Positions 13,767 to 32,132 of a stretch of 64,000 nucleotides of DNA are shown in pieces. The number at the start of each line of letters is the position of its first letter. Position 1 is the first letter of the stretch. The notes below the pieces were generated by a model. That model did not search any database, had not been told where the DNA came from, and saw only the letters and a list, made by a program, of their open reading frames with translations. Position numbers and translations under genes: made by a program. The stretch is from positions 2,982-66,981 of the forward strand of contig DASYRH010000030.1 in NCBI GenBank assembly GCA_036004585.1, read 5' to 3'. This DNA is from Nitrososphaera sp. (GTDB lineage Archaea > Thermoproteota > Nitrososphaeria > Nitrososphaerales > Nitrososphaeraceae).

Positions 13767-15293
13767 ATGATGTCCGGATCAAAACCGGCTCTGTCAGCGT
13801 TGGCTCTACAGAATGAACTCTTTAATGCACTGTCCTATGCGACTAGCAACAGGTTTCAGATTCATCCCGACGCATTCGCAATGCTCAGAGGCCTCGACGA
13901 TGACATTCTGAGGATTGTGCAGGAAATAGTCAAGCTGAAAAAAACAGGCAAAAATTCGGTAATCATGATCGAAGATATCAAGAGCTTTCTCAATCCAGGG
14001 AGGGCCCATGAGCAAGAAGCATCTACTGAGCAAAGCTGCAATGTCATCATGGATCCAACCCCAAATGTCGCGACAGGTGAGGGTGTGGAGGGCTATGCTG
14101 CGCTATTTCACAGCAGATTTGAAAAGACAATGAAAATACTCTCCCAGCGGCCCGATAGCAAGCGAATCTCCAAGGTTGCATCAGTCAAGCAAAACTCTAG
14201 GAACGGCTCAAGGACACAATCGGAAAGAGGTGAGCGCAGCCAAAACGGTGGTTCTACTACGATCGTTGCCGGGCTATTGATGTCAAAGCGATCAAAGAAG
14301 AATGGTGTAGAACTTGCAGTCGATGACTACACCGGCACGCTGTCGGTGATGGCAACTACGGAAGATGCGAAAAAACAAGCCGCGTCTCTTGCGCTTGATC
14401 AGATGGTCATGCTAGAGCTTGAGAGTGGCAAGGGTGCTCCCGGCTTGACCGTCAAGAGCATAATAGCGCCAGACATTCCAGACCACTTACCAGGCAGGAG
14501 CAGGTCAGAATCCTACGCGGTACTGATCTCTGACTTGCACGTCGGAAGCAAATTTTTTATGCAGACCGAGTTTATGCGCTTTCTTGAATGGCTTTCTTCC
14601 ACTGAAGACGAAATTGTGTGCAAGATAAAGTTCCTTTGTTTTGGAGGCGACTTGATCGACGGGATCGGAATATTTCCAAACCAAGATAAGGAGTTGGTCG
14701 AGCTGAACGCTGTAAAGCAGATGAGCCGGGCTACAGATCTGCTTGCAATGGTCCCAAAACACATCAAGATGTTTGTGATACCGGGGAACCACGACCCTGG
14801 CAGGCGCGCCCTTCCACAACCGTCTATCCCGAGAAGAGATCTTGCGGACAAACTCTATTCGCTAGAGAACTGTGCCATGCTGGGAAATCCAGCTTTTGTA
14901 GAGCTAAACGGCGTCAAAGTTTTGATGTACCATGGGCAGAGCCTTGACGATGTCATTGCATCTACTCCAGGTTTGAGCTATTCCAAGCCGGCAGAGGCGA
15001 TGAAAGTGCTTCTAAAAGCGCGGCACTTGTCTCCAACCTATGGGGAGCGCACGCCCATCGCGCCAGAGCAGGAAGATATGATGGTGATTTCTGAGGTCCC
15101 TGACATTCTTCATTCTGGCCATGTTCATGTAGTCGACATCCAAAATTACCGGGGCACGCTTATTGTTAATTCAGGCGCTTGGCAGGCGCAAACGAAATTC
15201 CAGCAGACAATGGGTGTTACTCCGACGCCAGGCATCGCCGTCGTCGTTAACCTGGCGACTCTCCAGCCATTCCTTCAGGATTTCAATCAATGA
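13767..15293 (+). CDS. polB: DNA polymerase D small subunit DP1 (proofreading exonuclease)
   Basis: OB fold plus calcineurin-like phosphoesterase motifs ISDLHVGS, GGDLIDG, PGNHD, YHG and HSGHVH. Confidence 0.95.
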   Translation: MMSGSKPALSALALQNELFNALSYATSNRFQIHPDAFAMLRGLDDDILRIVQEIVKLKKTGKNSVIMIEDIKSFLNPGRAHEQEASTEQSCNVIMDPTPNVATGEGVEGYAALFHSRFEKTMKILSQRPDSKRISKVASVKQNSRNGSRTQSERGERSQNGGSTTIVAGLLMSKRSKKNGVELAVDDYTGTLSVMATTEDAKKQAASLALDQMVMLELESGKGAPGLTVKSIIAPDIPDHLPGRSRSESYAVLISDLHVGSKFFMQTEFMRFLEWLSSTEDEIVCKIKFLCFGGDLIDGIGIFPNQDKELVELNAVKQMSRATDLLAMVPKHIKMFVIPGNHDPGRRALPQPSIPRRDLADKLYSLENCAMLGNPAFVELNGVKVLMYHGQSLDDVIASTPGLSYSKPAEAMKVLLKARHLSPTYGERTPIAPEQEDMMVISEVPDILHSGHVHVVDIQNYRGTLIVNSGAWQAQTKFQQTMGVTPTPGIAVVVNLATLQPFLQDFNQ

Positions 15294-16500
15294 GTGTAGA
15301 GAATGTGGGATCTTCCTTGAGGGCCTCTCTCAAAGTTGTGAGTGGGATCTTTATTCTGATTTTCTGTGATCTTCCGTAGCGCCCTTGGTTCACCACGTCG
15401 GTTGTGACCAGGCCCAGCAGGTCTAGTTTGCTTATCATCTGGGTGACTCGGCGCTGTGTAAGCGGATCTTGTTCGGCCTGCTTGCAAAATGAAGAATATG
15501 CGTTGTAGACGTCTCCGGTAAAGCCGTCCTTTGATTTTGCAATCGCAATTATTACCAGCTTCATGTGCGCTGGTGCGTTTTTCAAAAGCACATAGGGCGC
15601 ATCTCGTTCTATTTTTTCCTGCGCTGCTCTTACATGTTTTTCATCAACTTTCGGCGCGCTTTCTCTTTCAGCAATCTCTGCTCCGACTCTCAGCAGGTCT
15701 ATTGCTTTTCTTGCGTCGCCATGTTCCCTTCCAGCCATCGCAGAACACAGATTGATAGCAGCCTCGGTGATGGCCCCGTCGGTGAAAGCGATTCTGGATC
15801 TTTCATGCAGTATCTGGCGCAGTTGCTCTATAGTATATGGGTTGAAAACCATTTCCTCCTCGCTAAGGCTGCTGCGAACCCGCGGGTCCAGCTTGTCTTT
15901 GAAGTCTAGGCTGTTTGATATTCCGATAAGTGAGATGAATCCTCCCTTGGCCATCTGCTGGTTTGCTCTTGTGAAACTATAGAGAACGTCGTCGCCGCTC
16001 TTGTCCACCAACGAATCTATTTCGTCGATGACGAGGATAAGGCCAAGTTTTTTCTTTTGAATATATTGTAGAATTCTGCTCATTGCTTCGCCGATTGAAA
16101 GACCGGTGAATGGCACTTGCTTTGTATTGTCTTGTTCTTGGTTTAGTCCAAGTTCCTCAGCGATCTCAAAAAGCACTTTGTACGCAGTGCTTGCACCCTT
16201 TGCATTGACATTAACTGCTTGAACTCCGGATTTCATTTCCTTGGCTTTCTTTGCAAGCCTTTCTACAACTTTCCTTACTACGGCAGTTTTGCCAGTCCCA
16301 GGTTCGCCAAATAGTAACAGGTTTGACGGCCTTGAACTCCTAAACACCGTCGACAGTACTTGGGCAACGGCGTTTTCTTCCTGCTCTCTGAAAGGCAATC
16401 TTTCTGGGACATAATCTATTGTTAAGGCCTGCCGGTTTCTGATGAGCGACTTCCCACTTGCGGCGTTGTTGAAAATGTTGTCGATATCAGAAGAGCTCAA
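15283..16500 (-). CDS. cdc6: Orc1/Cdc6 replication initiator
   Basis: Walker A GEPGTGKT, Walker B IDEID, GDARKAIDLLR and C-terminal wH (GRYGRS). Confidence 0.96.
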   Translation of the reverse strand: MSSSDIDNIFNNAASGKSLIRNRQALTIDYVPERLPFREQEENAVAQVLSTVFRSSRPSNLLLFGEPGTGKTAVVRKVVERLAKKAKEMKSGVQAVNVNAKGASTAYKVLFEIAEELGLNQEQDNTKQVPFTGLSIGEAMSRILQYIQKKKLGLILVIDEIDSLVDKSGDDVLYSFTRANQQMAKGGFISLIGISNSLDFKDKLDPRVRSSLSEEEMVFNPYTIEQLRQILHERSRIAFTDGAITEAAINLCSAMAGREHGDARKAIDLLRVGAEIAERESAPKVDEKHVRAAQEKIERDAPYVLLKNAPAHMKLVIIAIAKSKDGFTGDVYNAYSSFCKQAEQDPLTQRRVTQMISKLDLLGLVTTDVVNQGRYGRSQKIRIKIPLTTLREALKEDPTFSTLID

Positions 16501-16538
16501 GTGCCATATACACCACTAGTTGTAATTTTAACCCGCCG

Positions 16539-16710
16539 CCACCCCTACCTTTCTTATCCAAGAAACAAATTTCTTAACTTTACCTTAACAGGCATGTTAA
16601 CACGTCGCTTTTAACAAGCCAAATCAATTTGTACTCATTATCATATCAAGATAATGATCTTTTGATTTTCAAGCTTAGAGACAGGTCCTGCATAGGAAAG
16701 GTAGGGGTGG
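16539..16710. repeat. perfect 15-bp inverted repeat flanking the AT-rich region
   Basis: CCACCCCTACCTTTC (16539-16553) and GAAAGGTAGGGGTGG (16696-16710); resembles the GAAAC...GGGGT half of the ORB. Confidence 0.8.
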
Positions 16711-16788
16711 GCCCGGATCCAAATAATGCAAGTCGATTGTCTACTGTTAACTATCTAGATCAATTCAATGAAAAACGGCTCAAAAATG

Positions 16789-16809
16789 ACCCCTCTGTTT
16801 CCACTGGAG
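16789..16809 (-). promoter_or_regulatory. origin recognition box (ORB) 1
   Basis: Minus strand reads CTCCAGTGGAAACAGAGGGGT, matching the archaeal ORB consensus TCCAGTGGAAAC plus G-string. Confidence 0.9.
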
Positions 16810-16850
16810 CGTTAAGGTCGATCGTTAACAGTGTTAAGACCCCGATCTAC

Positions 16851-16871
16851 ACCCCTTCGTTTCCACTGGAG
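16851..16871 (-). promoter_or_regulatory. origin recognition box (ORB) 2
   Basis: Minus strand reads CTCCAGTGGAAACGAAGGGGT; direct repeat of ORB1, 62 bp away. Confidence 0.9.
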
Positions 16872-17040
16872 CACCAAAACGGGTGTTTTTTACTAGAAAT
16901 GTGGTTAACAGGAACGGCGAGTTAACGAAAAAAGCTATCGTCTCATGCAGTGTTAACATTAGCTAAGCTGGTTGTTATCACCCTTGACAGAGCTGTTGTT
17001 AAGTGTTAAGCAGTTAACAGGTCAAGCTACCTTTACTAAA

Positions 17041-17490
17041 ATGAGCTCGGGGAAGAAAAAGTTCAAGATAGAGTTAGAGGACGCCGAGGGGAGTAAGTAT
17101 AACATGTCCCTCGAAGGCAACATATCTAAAGACAAGATCCTGAGGATAGTCGAGTTCATGGATCTCCTCAACATAGAGTCCCCGAATGGCCATACAGAGG
17201 CCATCAGACCTGTCTCTGGTTCGGTCGGCGACAGGATATGGAGCCTTGTCGACTCGAAATTCCCTTACGGCAGCTTTACTTCAAGCGATATCCTGGAGCT
17301 ATATGAGGACCAGTATAATGAGCCCATAAAACTGAGCATTGTCTCGACCTATCTCTCCAGGTATTCCGAGCGGGGACGACTGGCAAGAGTCCGCCAAGGA
17401 AAGGAATGGGTATACCATGCCTCTAGAGATTCCGCAGCTCGGATGCCACCTCAGTCTTTTCCCTCAACCTCTCCCGACCAAGGTCAGTGA
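17041..17490 (+). CDS. uncharacterised protein with C-terminal winged-helix domain, divergent from cdc6
   Basis: ATG 17041 (MSSGKKKFKIEL); wHTH-like FTSSDILELYEDQY...LSIVSTYLSRYSERGRLARVRQGKEWVY. Confidence 0.75.
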   Translation: MSSGKKKFKIELEDAEGSKYNMSLEGNISKDKILRIVEFMDLLNIESPNGHTEAIRPVSGSVGDRIWSLVDSKFPYGSFTSSDILELYEDQYNEPIKLSIVSTYLSRYSERGRLARVRQGKEWVYHASRDSAARMPPQSFPSTSPDQGQ

Positions 17491-18052
17491 GGGTATAGTG
17501 AAATGGCTTTTTTGTGCTATCTCTGGCTACAAACTGGGACTCTGTCAGCCTTTTCATCAACCTGGCAGTGTGCTCCCTGGTCCTTCCGATTGCCTGCTGG
17601 ACCTCTCTTGAAGTCCTCGGCCTTTCTGCGAGCATCTTTAGGATATAATCGGTAGTCCCGTTCTGGCCATCCTGCTTCTCTGCATCGGTTGCTGATGTGA
17701 TACGCTCTGTGACAACGGGGGGTTCTGTGATTCGCGCTACGTGATGTTGCGGCGCATGTGATGTCACATCCTGTGATATCACATTGATTCTTGGCGTTTC
17801 TGCCCTCAATTCGATGATATCCAGCTTTGTGCGGAGCTCGGCAATTGCCTTATCGTAGTCATGAAGGCGGCGAGAGTATTCCATTACAACGGCCTCTGTG
17901 ATCGACTCATCAGAGTTGTGACGCTTTCGAGTCAAACCGGCAAACCTGTGATACAACATCACACCGGCCATGCCTGCAAAAAAGGCAAGGCCCGCATACA
18001 TCACATCCTGTGATGTGATAAATGTCACAGCGCCCGATAAATCGAAGGCCAT
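17423..18052 (-). CDS. membrane-anchored coiled-coil + winged-helix protein
   Basis: TM helix VMYAGLAFFAGMAGVMLY followed by RKRH, heptad region (YSRRLHDYDKAIAELRTKLDII), and C-terminal wHTH RTSREVQQAIGRTREHTARLMKRL...PFHYTLTDLG. ATG 18052. Confidence 0.8.
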   Translation of the reverse strand: MAFDLSGAVTFITSQDVMYAGLAFFAGMAGVMLYHRFAGLTRKRHNSDESITEAVVMEYSRRLHDYDKAIAELRTKLDIIELRAETPRINVISQDVTSHAPQHHVARITEPPVVTERITSATDAEKQDGQNGTTDYILKMLAERPRTSREVQQAIGRTREHTARLMKRLTESQFVARDSTKKPFHYTLTDLGRERLREKTEVASELRNL

Positions 18053-18207
18053 ATCACGCGAGTACGTGACATTGCTGTGATATATCACTATAGCATCACA
18101 TTATTTTACAATCTGGACACTCTTTTTATCACTTGTGACATCACAGACATCACGCTTTCTGTGATGTCCGGACGCAAAATATCACGCGTTTCAGGGGCAA
18201 ATATCAC
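17697..18207. repeat. dense array of GTGAY/RTCAC half-sites embedded in coding DNA
   Basis: 28 hand-counted copies of GTGAT/GTGAC/ATCAC/GTCAC in about 510 bp (about 2 expected at uniform base composition), including TGTGATATCACA and TGTGATGTCACA. Confidence 0.8.
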
Positions 18208-18477
18208 GCGCAACTGTTCTCCAAGTTGTCCCAATGCTGCCAGGCTTTGCGGTTCCAGGACGTCCGTTGATTGTAGAAGCACCACGCTGTAAAGGACAGC
18301 CTGAACCTTGTCCTGACACTGCTTCACCTGCCTGAAATACGCGCCCGAAGTCATGTTTGGCAGCCGGCTTGCACCTTGAAGCCTGTTATAGATTATTGAA
18401 ATCTGTTTTGCCGTAAATAAAGAATTTGCAACAAGTTGTGAAAATAGTTGACTAGAATTGAATTGCTTTCCGTCCAT
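18106..18477 (-). CDS. hypothetical protein, weak HTH-like signature
   Basis: ATG 18477 (MDGKQFNS); FTAKQISIIY...TSGAYFRQVKQ resembles a degenerate HTH. Co-oriented with the membrane wHTH gene. Confidence 0.65.
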   Translation of the reverse strand: MDGKQFNSSQLFSQLVANSLFTAKQISIIYNRLQGASRLPNMTSGAYFRQVKQCQDKVQAVLYSVVLLQSTDVLEPQSLAALGQLGEQLRVIFAPETRDILRPDITESVMSVMSQVIKRVSRL

Positions 18478-18567
18478 ACGACTATACAGATTTGTATAGC
18501 GCTTGCTTGCTATTAAGATTGGCGTATCATCAAACTTTAAAATGACACGCCATAATGAACAAAAGGC

Positions 18568-19317
18568 GTGCGGGATCTGGGAAAGGTCGAACAATACCTC
18601 AATAAAGAGATAAAGAAATGGGGCACGATCTGTCTTCCACTTATCGACTCGGAAAATTCGGCAAATGTAGCATTGGTGGCCAAGAAAGTGGAGGGGTTGG
18701 GTGCATCAGCGATTCTGGTAGGTGGGTCGTCTGCCATCGATCAGATAGAGCTCGCCAAGGTTGTGACGGAGATAAAATCACATGTCACAGTCCCTGTGAT
18801 ATTATTCCCAGGCAATGTCACAGGCGTATCACCAAAGGCAGACGCAATTCTTTTTAGCTCGCTTTTGAATTCCGAGAACCCATACTTTATCACCGAAGCG
18901 CAAGCGCTTGGCGCCGTGGCCGTCAAAAAGTATGGAATCGAACCGCTGCCGACGGCCTACATTATTGTGGGAGAAGGAACAGCTGCCTGGTTTGTAGGAA
19001 GAGCAAGGGGCATACCTTTTCACAAACCAAACATCGCTGTGATGTATTCCCTGGCTGCACAGTACATGGGGATGAGATTTGTGTACCTGGAAGCAGGGTC
19101 GGGCGCTACTCAAAATGTTCCCGCAGAGATGGTAGCGGCCGTGAGAAAGCACTACGAGGGCACGCTAATCGTCGGGGGCGGGATACGGACTGCAGAAACT
19201 GCCGGCAACATAGCAACCGCAGGGGCCGACATCATAGTCATCGGAACAATGATCGAGAAGGACGGCAACTGGCAGGAAAACTTTTCTTCAGTAGTCAAAG
19301 CTATTCGGTCGCGATGA
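18568..19317 (+). CDS. geranylgeranylglyceryl phosphate synthase
   Basis: LIDSE, ILVGGS, ILFPG, YLEAGSGA and IVGGGIR motifs. Confidence 0.93.
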   Translation: MRDLGKVEQYLNKEIKKWGTICLPLIDSENSANVALVAKKVEGLGASAILVGGSSAIDQIELAKVVTEIKSHVTVPVILFPGNVTGVSPKADAILFSSLLNSENPYFITEAQALGAVAVKKYGIEPLPTAYIIVGEGTAAWFVGRARGIPFHKPNIAVMYSLAAQYMGMRFVYLEAGSGATQNVPAEMVAAVRKHYEGTLIVGGGIRTAETAGNIATAGADIIVIGTMIEKDGNWQENFSSVVKAIRSR

Positions 19318-25866: not shown

Positions 25867-25981
25867 ATATTTGCAGCGAGGGCTGAAATAAATCTATAGA
25901 GTCAGTTCAAGTGTTTTAAACAGGATAAGCAAGAAAAAGCTACACACTAGCACTTTTCGGCATTTGCGGCAAGGTACCCAA

Positions 25982-26599
25982 ATGCGTACACCCAACAAGG
26001 TTCAACTAGCGTCAATCTCAGCGGCATTTATCCTTGCGGGCTATATCGCAGCTACGGCGGGAATGCAGTCCAGTTCTCCACAATCGCTGGACCTCCCTCC
26101 GGTATTGGTTGCAGATGCAGCGGCAGTGGACTATTTTCTAAAGATTGAAGGAATCGACGGAGAGTCAACGAGCGATACTCACAAAGACCAACTTGAAATA
26201 GATTCGTTCTCCTGGGGCATGTCAAATTCTGGTTCAATGGCTGCAGGAGGTGGTGGTGGAGCCGGAAAGGTGAGCTTTTCATCTTTAAAGTTGACGACCG
26301 CGATCAGCAAGGCATCGCCAAAGCTGTTTGAGGCGTGCGCCACAGGAAAGCACTTTCCAACAGCTACACTGACTCTTGTGAATTCAGAACAACGTGACCT
26401 AGAATTCATGAAGGTAACGCTGAGCGATGTGATCATCAGCTCGTACCAGACAACCGGCACGTCAGGAGAATCTCCCGCCGAGAGTTTCAGACTGAATTTC
26501 GCGAAAATTGAATACGAGTACACACCGCAAAAAGCTGACGGAAGCATGGACGCACCTGTCAAGGCAGGGTACGACCTGGCGTTAAACAAGAAGGTCTAA
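25982..26599 (+). CDS. hcp: Hcp1-family (T6SS tube-like) protein with N-terminal signal/anchor
   Basis: YFLKIEGIDGES, HKDQLEIDSFSWG, SKASPKLFEACATGKH, VTLSDVIISSY, ESFRLNFAKIEYEY and GYDLALNK, preceded by a hydrophobic helix and polar linker. Confidence 0.88.
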   Translation: MRTPNKVQLASISAAFILAGYIAATAGMQSSSPQSLDLPPVLVADAAAVDYFLKIEGIDGESTSDTHKDQLEIDSFSWGMSNSGSMAAGGGGGAGKVSFSSLKLTTAISKASPKLFEACATGKHFPTATLTLVNSEQRDLEFMKVTLSDVIISSYQTTGTSGESPAESFRLNFAKIEYEYTPQKADGSMDAPVKAGYDLALNKKV

Positions 26600-30194: not shown

Positions 30195-32132
30195 ATGCCA
30201 GCAGCAGCTATCTCAAAATTTGTGAATCAAAGCGAAATTGATGAATCTTACAAGAGTCTGTCGCCAAACCTGGGCGGAAAAAAGGACAACTATTTCGGAG
30301 TCCTTTATCTGTCCAAGAAATTCAACATTGCTCCAGGTGAAGCCGCCTCTTTTGTAGCGGTAGATGGAACGACGGACGCAGGAATAGACGCGTATTACCA
30401 TGACATCGACAAGAAGACACTGTACCTGTACGTCTTTCGTTGGTCTGAGGACCATATCCAGTTCAGGGAGCCGCTCGAAAGGCTGGGAATGAACGGGATA
30501 AGCAAGATCTTTTTCGATCTGACAAAATCAGAAAATGATCATCCGCTTATTGTTTCGCTCAAGACCAGCCTGTTCGAAAATTGGAAGTCCATCGACCGCG
30601 TAGTGATCGACTTTGTTTTTAACGGCGACCCTGTTGACGCCGAGCAGAGCAAGGTGCTAAGTTTTCTCAGGGAGACGGTAGAAGACAAGCGCAGCTTTAT
30701 CGAAAGCTACCTTAGCAGGATAGGCGAGTCGCCAGGACTGCACGACCTCATATTCCACTACGTGTCAAACGTAAACGCCCTTGGAAACATCACTTCATCA
30801 CGTCAGACTGCTGAATACATCATAAACTTTGACGGTTCACTTGCTATTCCACCAACCCGCGCTGACAGCACTGAAGCTGGGATAGGCGGGAACCAGATGA
30901 CCGTGACGTTCCTCTCATTGGCGGATCTCCACAGAATGTATAGCGACCTTGGAGAGCGCTTTTTTGAAAAGAACCTCCGCTCCGGCCTTGACGAAGGCGA
31001 GATGACAAACATCCATATCAAAAACTCCCTACGGACGATACTTGAACAGCAAGAGGATCCGCAGAATTTCACTCTATATCACAACGGCATAACGCTGACT
31101 GCGCAGATACTCGAAATCAACGGTCCTTCAAGCGTGAGGATGGTCGAGCCAAGGATACTCAATGGCGCGCAGACCGTCAAGATAATCAAGCAGTTCGTAG
31201 ACGAGGAAACCCACAGGCAGCAGCGGGTGGCCCAGAAAGGCAAGAAGCGTCAGGCAACATCAAAGCACGCTGGAAAGGGAGAGGCCACCATAGACGACAA
31301 CAACAGGTTGCTGGCTACTGCGACAGATGCGCCGTCTGGTCTTCAAAGGATGCTTGAAGAGACAAAGGTGATGGCAAGGATTATCCAGTCAAAGGACGAC
31401 GAGTTTCTGCAGAGGGTCACCATAAACAACAACAGGCAGAACCCTATAATGCCATGGAACCTCCGGGCCAACGACCTAGTACAGATAACCTTTGAAGAAA
31501 TTTTTGCAAAACACGGCATCTACTACGAACGAAGGGAAAATGCCTACAAGAACATCATGGAAGAGGACATTGAAGGCAGCCTTGACGCCGAAAAAGGAGT
31601 TGTAGAGATCCGCAAGTTTGCACAGACGCTGCTCGCAGCTCGAGGGCAGGTGGACAGGATTTCAGAAATGAAAGAAGTCTTTGAGAGCGAAGCCTGGTAC
31701 AAGGACGCCTTCAAGGAAGGATCCGTCGACATTGAGCCGAGAAAACTGGTGCTGCTCTACAAAGTCCAGTACAGGTTGCAGAGCGTTATCAGAGAAATTA
31801 GAAGCCAGGGTGCAGACAAGTATGGATACGCGCCAAAGGCCAAGAACCTGATCTGGTGTCTTACGATTCAGGGATTGCTGAACGACAGCAAATTCGACAA
31901 GCTAGTGGAGACGTACGGCAACTCCACAGGAGTCGAAGCCGGCTTTACAGAGCTGCTAAAGAAACTTGCCAGCACAAAGATCCGGTTCATACTGAGCGAC
32001 ACGTTTGACACCAAGAAATATCGCGACCAGATGGCTGAAGGCAAGTTCTCGTTCCTGAAATCAAAGACAGCACTTGCGGACTGCATGAAGGTCGCGCGCA
32101 CGCGCTTTGACTGGGAAAAGCGCTCCCTATAA
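30195..32132 (+). CDS. AIPR family protein (abortive-infection/phage-resistance associated)
   Basis: DAGIDAYY, FFEKNLRSGL, FTLYHNGITL, ILNGAQT and NNNRQNPI motifs. Confidence 0.85.
   Translation: MPAAAISKFVNQSEIDESYKSLSPNLGGKKDNYFGVLYLSKKFNIAPGEAASFVAVDGTTDAGIDAYYHDIDKKTLYLYVFRWSEDHIQFREPLERLGMNGISKIFFDLTKSENDHPLIVSLKTSLFENWKSIDRVVIDFVFNGDPVDAEQSKVLSFLRETVEDKRSFIESYLSRIGESPGLHDLIFHYVSNVNALGNITSSRQTAEYIINFDGSLAIPPTRADSTEAGIGGNQMTVTFLSLADLHRMYSDLGERFFEKNLRSGLDEGEMTNIHIKNSLRTILEQQEDPQNFTLYHNGITLTAQILEINGPSSVRMVEPRILNGAQTVKIIKQFVDEETHRQQRVAQKGKKRQATSKHAGKGEATIDDNNRLLATATDAPSGLQRMLEETKVMARIIQSKDDEFLQRVTINNNRQNPIMPWNLRANDLVQITFEEIFAKHGIYYERRENAYKNIMEEDIEGSLDAEKGVVEIRKFAQTLLAARGQVDRISEMKEVFESEAWYKDAFKEGSVDIEPRKLVLLYKVQYRLQSVIREIRSQGADKYGYAPKAKNLIWCLTIQGLLNDSKFDKLVETYGNSTGVEAGFTELLKKLASTKIRFILSDTFDTKKYRDQMAEGKFSFLKSKTALADCMKVARTRFDWEKRSL

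What the first reader, a model, noticed from the sequence alone, without database searches (positions are those of the whole stretch)
16527..17018. Second origin motif: 13-15 GTTAA(C/G) sites interleaved with the ORBs
Seen: 7 perfect GTTAAC palindromes and 6 GTTAAG/CTTAAC variants (plus TTTAAC at 16527 and 16610) within about 490 bp. Well under one GTTAAC is expected by chance. The sites cluster on both sides of the ORBs and up to the start of the divergent wHTH gene. Inference: these are binding sites for an auxiliary origin factor (best candidate is the adjacent 17041-17490 wHTH), or methylation targets that time initiation, analogous to GATC sites in E. coli oriC.
Basis: partly seen in the sequence, partly recalled or inferred. 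Interest (0 to 1): 0.65.

Follow-up and report, generated by a model that had tools for sequence, protein, structure and literature searches.

The report
Conserved TGTTAA repeats at archaeal origin
The predicted chromosome replication origin of a soil ammonia-oxidising archaeon (Nitrososphaera) carries 13 copies of a short DNA word (GTTAAC/GTTAAG) that is conserved across the whole family as tightly as the initiator's own binding sites, which marks it as the docking array of a still unidentified origin-binding protein rather than a methylation signal.

Summary
There are 7 GTTAAC and 6 GTTAAG/CTTAAC in window 16573-17018, against 0.2 expected (P about 8e-20). They lie in the orc1/cdc6-adjacent origin, among the ORBs and on both sides of the AT-rich stretch.

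The two "TTTAAC" extras are other conserved boxes.

The cluster is conserved in about 45 Nitrososphaeraceae origins, with GC from 33 to 56%. GTTAAC is the most enriched hexamer there (72x). The family-wide unit is the half-site TGTTAA, with 9-20 copies per origin. Across six Nitrososphaera origins the site columns are 77% invariant, against 80% for the ORBs and 25% for the rest.

More distant thaumarchaeal origins with the same gene order carry TGTGAA(C) instead. The palindrome is therefore incidental, and methylation is unlikely.

The best reading is an array of sites for a sequence-specific accessory origin protein. The closest functional analogue is Sulfolobus ucm/UBP.

The adjacent winged-helix gene (17041-17490) is a weak candidate. 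It is frameshifted or absent in about 19 related loci whose arrays are intact. Two other conserved neighbours, a membrane-anchored wHTH protein and a helical 123-aa protein, are equally possible binders.

A second conserved array of 28 x GTGAT lies 700 bp away. I found no description of either array in the searchable literature.

The parts
16573..16601 (.). cdc6-proximal cluster of array A: CTTAAC (16573), CTTAAC (16584), GTTAAC (16596, full 8-mer TGTTAACA). It lies between the AT-rich stretch and the cdc6-proximal partial ORB.
   Evidence: All three positions are invariant in six Nitrososphaera origins, as TGTTAACATG / CTGTTAAGG / AAGTTAAG.
16746..16751 (.). Single GTTAAC between the inverted partial ORB and ORB-b.
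   Evidence: Conserved as GTTAACAG in 4 of 6 Nitrososphaera origins.
16811..16838 (.). Inter-ORB cluster: GTTAAG (16811, directly abutting ORB-b), GTTAAC (16824), GTTAAG (16833).
   Evidence: The TTAAC-ORB junction (C)TTAACGCTCCAGTGGAAA is conserved through low-GC relatives.
16904..16957 (.). Three GTTAAC sites (16904, 16921, 16952) distal to ORB-a.
16973..16980 (.).
   Evidence: GATAACAA is invariant in 6 of 6 Nitrososphaera origins. Also present in low-GC relatives.
16998..17018 (.). Distal tandem GTTAAGtGTTAAGcaGTTAAC (7-8 bp period), 23-43 bp upstream of the p149 start codon.
   Evidence: CTTAACACTTAACA is invariant in 6 of 6 origins. The tandem is retained in lineages that lack p149 and is expanded to 16 copies in L024.
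16788..16810 (-). ORB-b (origin recognition box): GCTCCAGTGGAAACAGAGGGGTC on the minus strand.
   Evidence: ORB words CCAGTGGA/TCCAGTGGAA are present in 42-43 of the related origins. ORB columns are 80% invariant.
16850..16872 (-). ORB-a: GCTCCAGTGGAAACGAAGGGGTG on the minus strand.
16539..16562 (.). cdc6-proximal partial ORB / G-string element (CCACCCCTACCTTTC...). It forms an inverted pair with 16683-16711.
   Evidence: conserved GAAAG..AGGGGTGG.
16683..16711 (.). Inverted partial ORB / G-string element (..GGAAAGGTAGGGGTGG).
16612..16680 (.). AT-rich stretch (GC 22-35%) between the inverted partial ORBs. It is the candidate duplex unwinding element.
   Evidence: The sequence is not conserved but the AT-richness is.
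15283..16500 (-). orc1/cdc6 initiator gene.
   Evidence: Pfam Cdc6_lid, Cdc6_C and AAA. NCBIfam ORC1-type.
17041..17490 (+). p149: two-domain protein of 149 aa (N-terminal beta-beta-alpha domain, C-terminal winged helix).
   Evidence: No Pfam family. AlphaFold2 gives pLDDT about 90 for residues 60-130, with an H-H-H-beta-beta winged helix. Foldseek gives weak ArsR/SmtB-like matches. There are 329 representative clusters. The gene is lost or frameshifted in several clades.
17423..18052 (-). p221: transmembrane helix + coiled coil + C-terminal wHTH. Its likely start is the ATG at 18052. It is present at the origin in every locus whose flank is available.
   Evidence: The recognition helix GRTREHTARLMKKL is nearly invariant.
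18106..18477 (-). p162 (true length 123 aa): helical protein with an HTH-like SGAYYRQVKQCR segment, encoded upstream of p221. Divergent homologues occupy the same position in distant lineages.
   Evidence: The AlphaFold2 model is all-helical with pLDDT 62.
17697..18210 (.). Array B: 28 copies of (Y)GTGA(T/C)(R)T, a second and distinct conserved motif array next to the origin. It lies over the 5' half of p221, the p162/p221 junction and the 3' end of p162.

Best explanation
Array A (13 x (T)GTTAA(C/G), 16573-17018) is a set of recognition sites for a sequence-specific DNA-binding protein. This protein decorates the Orc1/Cdc6-dependent origin of Nitrososphaeraceae alongside the initiator.

What is shown:
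- The sites are conserved in position and sequence as strongly as the ORBs.
- The recognised unit is a 6-7 bp asymmetric word, TGTKAA(S), not a palindrome.
- The word has switched one base (T versus G at position 4) between deep thaumarchaeal lineages while the architecture stayed the same (tandem pairs, sites flanking the ORBs and the AT-rich stretch).

What is inferred:
- A protein, as monomers or loosely coupled dimers, binds 13-20 sites. Adjacent sites are often 7-9 or 11-12 bp apart.
- It builds a nucleoprotein scaffold over the roughly 450 bp around the ORBs.
- It modulates Orc1 binding, MCM loading or MCM exit. Because sites sit 40-70 bp upstream of the cdc6 TATA-like box and over the p149 promoter, it may also modulate transcription of the flanking genes.

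The binder is not identified. Candidates are the three conserved origin-linked small DNA-binding proteins (p149, p221, p162) or a factor encoded elsewhere.
For: Local enrichment has P about 8e-20. GTTAAC is the most enriched hexamer (72x) and TGTTAA occurs 607 times in 45 cdc6-upstream regions, against 268 in 331 kb of flanks. TGTTAA is the top hexamer in every origin inspected, including those with only one GTTAAC.

Positional conservation is visible in the origin maps. In the six-genome alignment, 64 of 83 site columns are invariant, against 35 of 44 ORB columns and 94 of 383 other columns (Fisher P = 4e-19). Non-palindromic variants are invariant at fixed positions.

Orientation is biased: distal sites are mostly in the TTAAC orientation and cdc6-proximal sites mostly in the GTTAA orientation.

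Origins with Cdc6 41-49% identical and the same cdc6-ori-p149-p221 synteny carry TGTGAA(C) instead (13.5x enriched).

Within 64 kb the motif clusters only at the origin. There is published precedent for an essential non-initiator origin motif in archaea, ucm/UBP (PMC12141716).
Against: There is no binding data of any kind. The organism is an uncultured soil MAG and no RNA runs hold the region.

The binder is unknown. The only gene whose promoter the sites overlap (p149) is dispensable for keeping the array.

The covariation between motif and lineage rests on essentially one evolutionary switch. One locus (L128) mixes both words.

A role in replication, as opposed to transcription or segregation, is inferred from position only. 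That the locus fires as an origin is itself a prediction from ORBs and synteny.
Confidence: 0.62

Rival explanations
1. One reading: the divergently transcribed winged-helix protein p149 (17041-17490) is the protein that binds the array.
For: p149 models as a confident winged helix. It is a stand-alone family linked to the origin in both the TGTTAA and the TGTGAA lineages. The tandem sites lie 23-43 bp upstream of its start codon. Two positions of its putative recognition helix differ between the groups: LS(I/V)(I/V)STYLSR(Y/F) versus LST(V/I)STYL(S/A)RL.
Against: p149 is split over reading frames or fragmented in L014, L021 and L023. Its helix is garbled in L018. It is undetectable even at E<1 in about 15 loci where p221 abuts the origin. 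Yet TGTTAA counts are 13.5 (absent) and 17-18 (frameshifted or garbled: L014, L018, L023), against 12.3 where it is intact.

The helix difference is confounded with phylogeny, being one event. L128 has G-type residues but a GTTAA-rich origin.
Confidence: 0.2
2. GTTAAC sites are methylation targets that time initiation, by analogy with GATC/Dam/SeqA at E. coli oriC.
For: Seven perfect HpaI-type palindromes lie in 420 bp. One persistent Nitrososphaera methylase group (HG21) still has an unknown specificity.
Against: The conserved unit is TGTTAA. GTTAAG, CTTAAC, GATAAC and TGTTAAT are fixed at conserved positions and could not be substrates of a GTTAAC enzyme. Origins with only one GTTAAC still hold 9-10 TGTTAA. 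Sister lineages use the non-palindromic TGTGAAC. REBASE-based surveys list GATC, GTAC, AGCT and CGCG, but no GTTAAC, as persistent methylation in Nitrososphaerales. No methylase gene was found among the window ORFs scanned.
Confidence: 0.05
3. The sites are low-affinity or alternative binding sites of Orc1/Cdc6 itself (a thaumarchaeal counterpart of mini-ORBs), not of a second factor.
For: Other archaeal origins carry many short Orc1 sites besides the full ORBs (Pyrococcus mini-ORBs; abstract of PMC1904270, listed). One site directly abuts ORB-b (TTAACGCTCCAGTGG). Orc1 is the only origin protein certain to be present in all lineages.
Against: TGTTAAC has no resemblance to any part of the ORB (GCTCCAGTGGAAAC..AGGGGT). 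The ORB stayed constant between lineages while this word changed from T to G, which suggests a different reader.
Confidence: 0.08
4. The array is a centromere-like or membrane-tethering site rather than an initiation element. It would be bound by the membrane-anchored coiled-coil wHTH protein p221 (possibly with p162) to position or segregate the origin region.
For: p221 (TM helix + coiled coil + wHTH) and p162 flank the origin in every locus whose flank is available, including distant lineages. Multi-copy short sites near an origin are typical of partition sites. A second array, array B, sits on the p221 gene itself.
Against: The p221 recognition helix is nearly invariant across lineages in which array A changed its word. 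This fits the invariant GTGAT array B better than array A. No ParA/SegA-type ATPase was seen in the window ORFs scanned. Array A is interleaved with the ORBs and the AT-rich stretch.
Confidence: 0.1
5. The sites are only transcriptional operators for the divergent cdc6 and p149 promoters (a cell-cycle regulator's boxes), with no direct role in replication.
For: Three sites lie 40-70 bp upstream of the cdc6 TATA-like box and three lie just upstream of p149.
Against: Seven further sites lie 150-400 bp from either start codon, between and around the ORBs. The distal tandem persists where p149 is gone. No second cluster occurs at any other promoter in 64 kb.
Confidence: 0.1

Closest known systems
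ucm / UBP of Sulfolobales and Desulfurococcales (Dhanaraju et al. 2025, PMC12141716)
   Same: A short conserved non-ORB motif inside Orc1-dependent archaeal origins, recognised (in Sulfolobus) by a small non-initiator DNA-binding protein. The authors explicitly ask whether other archaeal lineages have analogous origin factors.
   Different: The ucm is a single 11-bp site in the middle of the DUE. Here there are 13-20 copies of a 6-7 bp word outside the AT-rich stretch, around the ORBs. UBP binds more than 300 sites genome-wide, whereas here there is no other cluster in 64 kb. The paper reports the ubp gene only from Desulfurococcales and Sulfolobales. UBP is described there as binding DNA through beta-hairpins, while the candidates here are wHTH/HTH proteins. 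Neither the ucm sequence nor UBP homology could be compared here.
Accessory-protein sites in bacterial origins (CtrA TTAA-N7-TTAA boxes in Caulobacter Cori; IHF/Fis in E. coli oriC). From general knowledge, not tested.
   Same: Multiple short A/T-cored sites for a non-initiator protein are interleaved with the initiator boxes. A direct spacing of 11 bp (TTAA-N7-TTAA) is the commonest in array A.
   Different: The domain of life and the initiator differ (Orc1/MCM rather than DnaA/DnaB). No response-regulator gene abuts the origin. Spacings of 7, 8, 9 and 12 bp are also common.
GATC/Dam/SeqA control of E. coli oriC
   Same: Over-representation of a short palindrome inside an origin.
   Different: Here the palindrome is incidental. 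Half-sites and non-palindromic variants are conserved, and sister lineages use TGTGAAC. No cognate methylase is known.
ORB / mini-ORB repeats bound by Orc1/Cdc6
   Same: Location, copy number and biased orientation around the unwinding region.
   Different: There is no sequence similarity to the ORB. The word evolves independently of the ORB.
Plasmid iterons / partition-site repeats
   Same: Tandem direct repeats (7-8 bp period) at one edge of the origin, which can expand (16 copies in L024).
   Different: The units are far shorter than typical 17-22 bp iterons. No Rep or ParA/ParB genes were found next to the origin.

Membership tests
Archaeal Orc1/Cdc6-dependent origin (oriC1 type) | Lies next to an orc1/cdc6 gene | tested here: met
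   The gene at 15283-16500 (-) matches Cdc6_lid, Cdc6_C and AAA, and NCBIfam ORC1-type.
Archaeal Orc1/Cdc6-dependent origin (oriC1 type) | ORB elements (TCCAGTGGAAA..GGGG) flanking an AT-rich unwinding region | tested here: met
   There are two full ORBs (16788-16810, 16850-16872). An inverted pair of partial ORBs brackets a stretch of 22-35% GC.
Archaeal Orc1/Cdc6-dependent origin (oriC1 type) | Initiation mapped in vivo (marker frequency or RIP mapping) | not testable with these tools
   The organism is an uncultured soil MAG. Only metagenome DNA runs hold the region. GC skew in the window is uninformative.
ucm/UBP system | Single ucm site centred in the DUE between inverted ORBs | tested here: not met
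   There are 13 sites, none inside 16612-16680. They are arranged around the ORBs.
ucm/UBP system | UBP homologue encoded in the genome | not tested
   No UBP sequence was available to the tools. The paper reports ubp only from Desulfurococcales and Sulfolobales.
ucm/UBP system | Motif required for origin firing | not testable with these tools
   Needs genetics or in vitro loading assays.
Methylation-timed origin (Dam/SeqA-like) | The conserved unit equals the exact methylase target | tested here: not met
   Non-palindromic variants are invariant at fixed positions. TGTTAA, not GTTAAC, is universal. Sister lineages carry TGTGAAC.
Methylation-timed origin (Dam/SeqA-like) | Cognate methyltransferase present in the lineage | tested here: inconclusive
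   REBASE surveys list GATC, GTAC, AGCT and CGCG plus one group of unknown specificity for Nitrososphaera, and none for GTTAAC. Only 64 kb of this genome was available.
CtrA-type TTAA-N7-TTAA origin boxes | Paired TTAA half-sites at fixed 11-bp spacing | tested here: inconclusive
   A direct spacing of 11 bp is the commonest (80 pairs), but spacings of 7, 8, 9 and 12 bp are also frequent. The counts are not phylogenetically independent.
Centromere / partition site (parS, SegB sites) | Adjacent partition ATPase and centromere-binding protein genes | tested here: not met
   No ParA/SegA-like ORF was found among the 27 window ORFs scanned. The rest of the genome is unseen.

The most novel reading that the evidence does not exclude
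Array A (TGTKAA), array B (GTGAT) and the three conserved small DNA-binding proteins (p149, the membrane-anchored p221, and p162) together form a previously unrecognised origin-associated module that is ancestral to Thaumarchaeota (Nitrososphaeria). In this reading it is an accessory layer of origin recognition, licensing or membrane tethering that works beside Orc1/Cdc6. It would have co-evolving protein-DNA specificity, so that the array-A word differs between lineages.
Probability: 0.3. Interest if true: 0.8.

Novelty: new variant of a known kind. Interest (0 to 1): 0.62.

Why it matters
Replication initiation in ammonia-oxidising archaea is known only from one marker-frequency map and from gene homology. 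These organisms are globally important nitrifiers and belong to the TACK archaea, whose replication machinery is orthologous to that of eukaryotes.

The only archaeal non-initiator origin factor characterised so far, UBP, is confined to Sulfolobales and Desulfurococcales. Its discoverers ask whether other lineages have analogues.

This finding supplies a concrete cis-element that is strongly conserved and has a lineage-specific one-base variant. It also supplies a short list of three linked candidate proteins. The question therefore becomes directly testable by EMSA, DAP-seq or footprinting with proteins from cultured Nitrososphaera or Nitrosocosmicus.

The motif could also improve origin prediction in thaumarchaeal MAGs.

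Tried and rejected
- Rfam scan of 16300-18700: no RNA family.
- Tandem Repeats Finder: nothing relevant, because the sites are dispersed.
- Literature searches for GTTAAC or the motif at archaeal or thaumarchaeal origins: no description found. Two of these searches were uninformative.
- RNA-seq for transcription start sites: only soil-metagenome DNA runs hold the sequence.
- Pfam, NCBIfam and PDB sequence searches give no family for p149 or p162. For p221 they give only generic wHTH hits.
- The AlphaFold2 model of p162 has too low a confidence (pLDDT 62) for a fold search.
- I tried to assign the binder from recognition-helix covariation. The result is suggestive for p149 but rests on one evolutionary event and is contradicted by L128, so I did not rely on it.
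- I looked for a DNA methylase or a ParA-type gene among 27 window ORFs: none.
- GATC (5 versus 2.5 expected) and AGCT (6 versus 2.4) are not significantly enriched in the origin.
- Most single-hit loci of the metagenome ORB scan were chance matches with no cdc6 nearby and were ignored.
- The profile search for p149 relatives found 329 clusters of small stand-alone proteins, with no informative domain fusions.

Full report
**Context.** The finding lies in the 540-bp intergenic region 16501-17040. On one side is an orc1/cdc6 gene (15283-16500, minus strand; Pfam Cdc6_lid, Cdc6_C and AAA; NCBIfam ORC1-type). On the other is a divergent 149-aa ORF (17041-17490). The surrounding genes are the small subunit of DNA polymerase D (13767-15293), a GGGP-synthase-like gene and the large subunit of PolD.

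The Cdc6 protein is 83% identical to that of a Nitrososphaera MAG. The region is found almost whole in soil-metagenome runs. The window therefore comes from an uncultured soil Nitrososphaera.

The intergenic region has the anatomy of an oriC1-type archaeal origin:
- two full ORBs (GCTCCAGTGGAAAC..AGGGGT at 16788-16810 and 16850-16872);
- an inverted pair of partial ORB/G-string elements (16539-16562 and 16683-16711);
- between that pair, a stretch of 22-35% GC (about 16612-16680).

That it fires as an origin is a prediction. It could not be tested here.

**The observation.** Exact searches confirm 7 GTTAAC (16596, 16746, 16824, 16904, 16921, 16952, 17013) and 6 GTTAAG/CTTAAC (16573, 16584, 16811, 16833, 16998, 17005). 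The rest of the window holds 5 GTTAAC in 63.5 kb. For the combined pattern the expectation in 540 bp is 0.20, against 13 observed (Poisson P = 8e-20). A scan of all hexamers for local clustering puts TGTTAA and GTTAAC at the origin among the four strongest signals in the window.

The two TTTAAC 'variants' belong to other conserved boxes. 16527 is part of GGGTTAAAATTA, about 25 bp upstream of cdc6 and probably its TATA box. 16610 is part of a conserved GTTTAAAA box at the edge of the AT-rich stretch.

**Conservation.** A genome-collection search with Cdc6 returned 51 Nitrososphaeraceae loci, with GC between 33 and 56%. In the 650 bp upstream of cdc6, 41 of 45 usable loci hold at least two GTTAAC, while their flanks hold almost none.

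An unbiased hexamer comparison of these upstream regions against 331 kb of flanks ranks GTTAAC first (72-fold). TGTTAA follows with 607 occurrences (25-fold). The 8-mer consensus is TGTTAACA / TRTTAAYA. Lineages with only one GTTAAC still have 9-10 TGTTAA, mostly as TGTTAATA. The family-wide unit is therefore the half-site TGTTAA, and the perfect palindromes are a subset.

Maps of 16 origins show the same order of elements:
- a tandem pair at the far edge;
- sites before ORB-a;
- two or three sites between the ORBs, one of them abutting ORB-b;
- one or two sites after ORB-b;
- the AT-rich stretch;
- a cluster of two or three sites before the cdc6-proximal partial ORB.

In an alignment of six Nitrososphaera origins, 77% of site columns are invariant. 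The figure is 80% for ORB columns and 25% for the remaining columns (Fisher P = 4e-19). Non-palindromic variants (CTTAACACTTAACA, GATAACAA, CTGTTAAGG, CCTTAAC-ORB) are invariant at their positions.

Non-palindromic sites are oriented mostly as TTAAC on the distal side and as GTTAA on the cdc6 side. Adjacent same-strand sites are most often 11, 7-9 or 12 bp apart. These counts are not phylogenetically independent.

**Deeper lineages.** A metagenome scan with the ORB pattern recovered origins whose Cdc6 is only 41-49% identical but which keep the cdc6-origin-p149-p221 gene order. There the repeated word is TGTGAA(C) rather than TGTTAA(C). Examples are TGTGAACTTGTGAACT, GGTTCACACCACTTCACA and TTCACAGAGAGTTCACA.

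TGTGAA is enriched 13.5-fold in these origins over their flanks and is individually significant in L088, L126, L139, L114 and L162. One locus (L128) is GTTAA-rich. Another (L160) may use TGTCAA, but the numbers are small.

The element is therefore older than the family Nitrososphaeraceae, and it has changed one base between lineages. In sister lineages the word is not palindromic. This makes the palindromic character of GTTAAC incidental. It is the pattern expected of a co-evolving protein-DNA pair.

**Methylation.** The conserved unit is not a methylase target (see above). REBASE-based surveys list GATC, GTAC, AGCT and CGCG as persistent methylation in Nitrososphaerales, plus one Nitrososphaera group of unknown specificity, and no GTTAAC enzyme. 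I rate this hypothesis at about 5%. A methylome of a cultured strain would settle it.

**Who binds?** Three small putative DNA-binding proteins are linked to the origin.

p149 has no Pfam family. Its C-terminal 70 residues model as a confident winged helix (pLDDT about 90) with weak ArsR/SmtB-like structural matches. The family comprises 329 representative clusters of stand-alone proteins of similar size.

However, p149 is split across reading frames or fragmented in L014, L021 and L023. Its helix is garbled in L018. It is undetectable in about 15 loci where p221 directly abuts the origin. The arrays there are as rich as elsewhere: mean TGTTAA count 13.5 where p149 is absent and 17-18 where it is degraded, against 12.3 where it is intact. 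Unless a copy exists elsewhere in those genomes, p149 is not needed to maintain the array.

p221 (true start probably the ATG at 18052) has a transmembrane helix, a coiled coil and a C-terminal wHTH whose recognition helix, GRTREHTARLMKKL, is almost invariant in all lineages.

p162 (true length 123 aa, start at 18477) is helical with an HTH-like segment. It has divergent homologues at the same position in the distant lineages.

The p149 helix differs at two positions between the TGTTAA and TGTGAA groups, while the p221 helix does not. This amounts to a single evolutionary contrast, and L128 does not fit. I treat it as a lead only.

**A second array.** The hexamer scan also exposed 28 copies of (Y)GTGA(T/C)(R)T in 17697-18210, against a background of 1.8 per 500 bp. 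This array B covers the 5' half of the p221 coding sequence, the p162/p221 junction and the 3' end of p162.

It is conserved at the same place in all loci, including the distant ones, with 7-15 GTGAT per 500 bp against about 1. Full palindromes GTGATATCAC occur in L114.

Inside the p221 coding sequence the motif count is 16, far above what the protein sequence and codon usage would give (4.9 +/- 1.8, maximum 11 in 2000 resamplings). The word of array B is invariant across lineages, as is the p221 helix. A p221-array B pairing is therefore plausible but untested.

**Comparison with what is known.** The closest functional analogue is the ucm/UBP pair of Sulfolobus. It is a conserved non-ORB origin motif that is essential for firing and is bound by a small non-initiator protein that contacts MCM (PMC12141716).

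Array A differs from it in copy number (13-20 versus 1) and in position (around the ORBs rather than mid-DUE). It also differs in apparent origin specificity (no other cluster in 64 kb, against more than 300 UBP sites) and in lineage. It is not a member of that system.

The resemblances to CtrA boxes, iterons, parS and mini-ORBs are partial (see the membership table). I found no paper describing this motif. The searchable library does not include most subscription journals, notably the original N. maritimus origin-mapping paper.

**Verdict.**
- The interpretation 'binding sites of an auxiliary origin factor' is the best-supported reading (about 0.6).
- The named candidate protein is doubtful (about 0.2).
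- The methylation alternative is unlikely (about 0.05).
- The element appears to be an undescribed, family-wide (and in variant form phylum-deep) component of thaumarchaeal origins.

Noticed in passing
window 17697-18210: Array B: 28 copies of (Y)GTGA(T/C)(R)T against about 1.8 per 500 bp elsewhere. It spans the 5' half of the p221 coding sequence, the p162/p221 junction and the 3' end of p162. It is conserved at the same place in all related loci, including distant lineages (palindromes GTGATATCAC in L114). It exceeds what the protein sequence allows (16 observed versus 4.9 +/- 1.8 under synonymous resampling).
   Followed up: partly
L024:3270-3490: The distal tandem of the origin array is expanded to about 16 head-to-tail GTTAAxx units with a 7-bp period, in two blocks. 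This looks like slippage-type expansion of the binding-site repeat.
   Followed up: no
L014:3056-3476; L021:3056-3441; L023:2028-3180; L018:3115-3486: The p149 homologue is a pseudogene in these loci. It is split across reading frames (L014, L021), interrupted by about 0.9 kb (L023), or has a garbled recognition helix (L018). The origin array remains intact.
   Followed up: yes
window 16523-16534 and 16609-16615: Two further conserved boxes lie in the origin. GGGTTAAAATTA is about 25 bp upstream of cdc6 and is probably its TATA box. GTTTAAAA lies at the cdc6-side edge of the AT-rich stretch and is conserved down to 33%-GC relatives.
   Followed up: partly
L160:991-1509: This is a distant origin (Cdc6 41% identical) with neither TGTTAA nor TGTGAA. 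It has four TTGTCA/TGACAA words, possibly a third variant (TGTCAA) of the origin word. The numbers are too small to judge.
   Followed up: no
L114:2583-3209: In this distant locus an XRE-type HTH gene sits between the p162-like gene and p221, immediately after the GTGAT array.
   Followed up: no
window 25964-26599: An ORF with a strong match to the type VI secretion Hcp family (PF05638, E = 3e-40) in an archaeal genome.
   Followed up: no
window 30195-32132: An ORF with an AIPR (abortive-infection phage resistance) domain, a likely defence gene.
   Followed up: no
whole window: The tetranucleotide TTAA is rare: 127 in 64 kb, 15 of them in the origin. AATT occurs 291 times and TATA 157 times. 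The origin word is therefore built on a tetranucleotide that the genome otherwise avoids.
   Followed up: no
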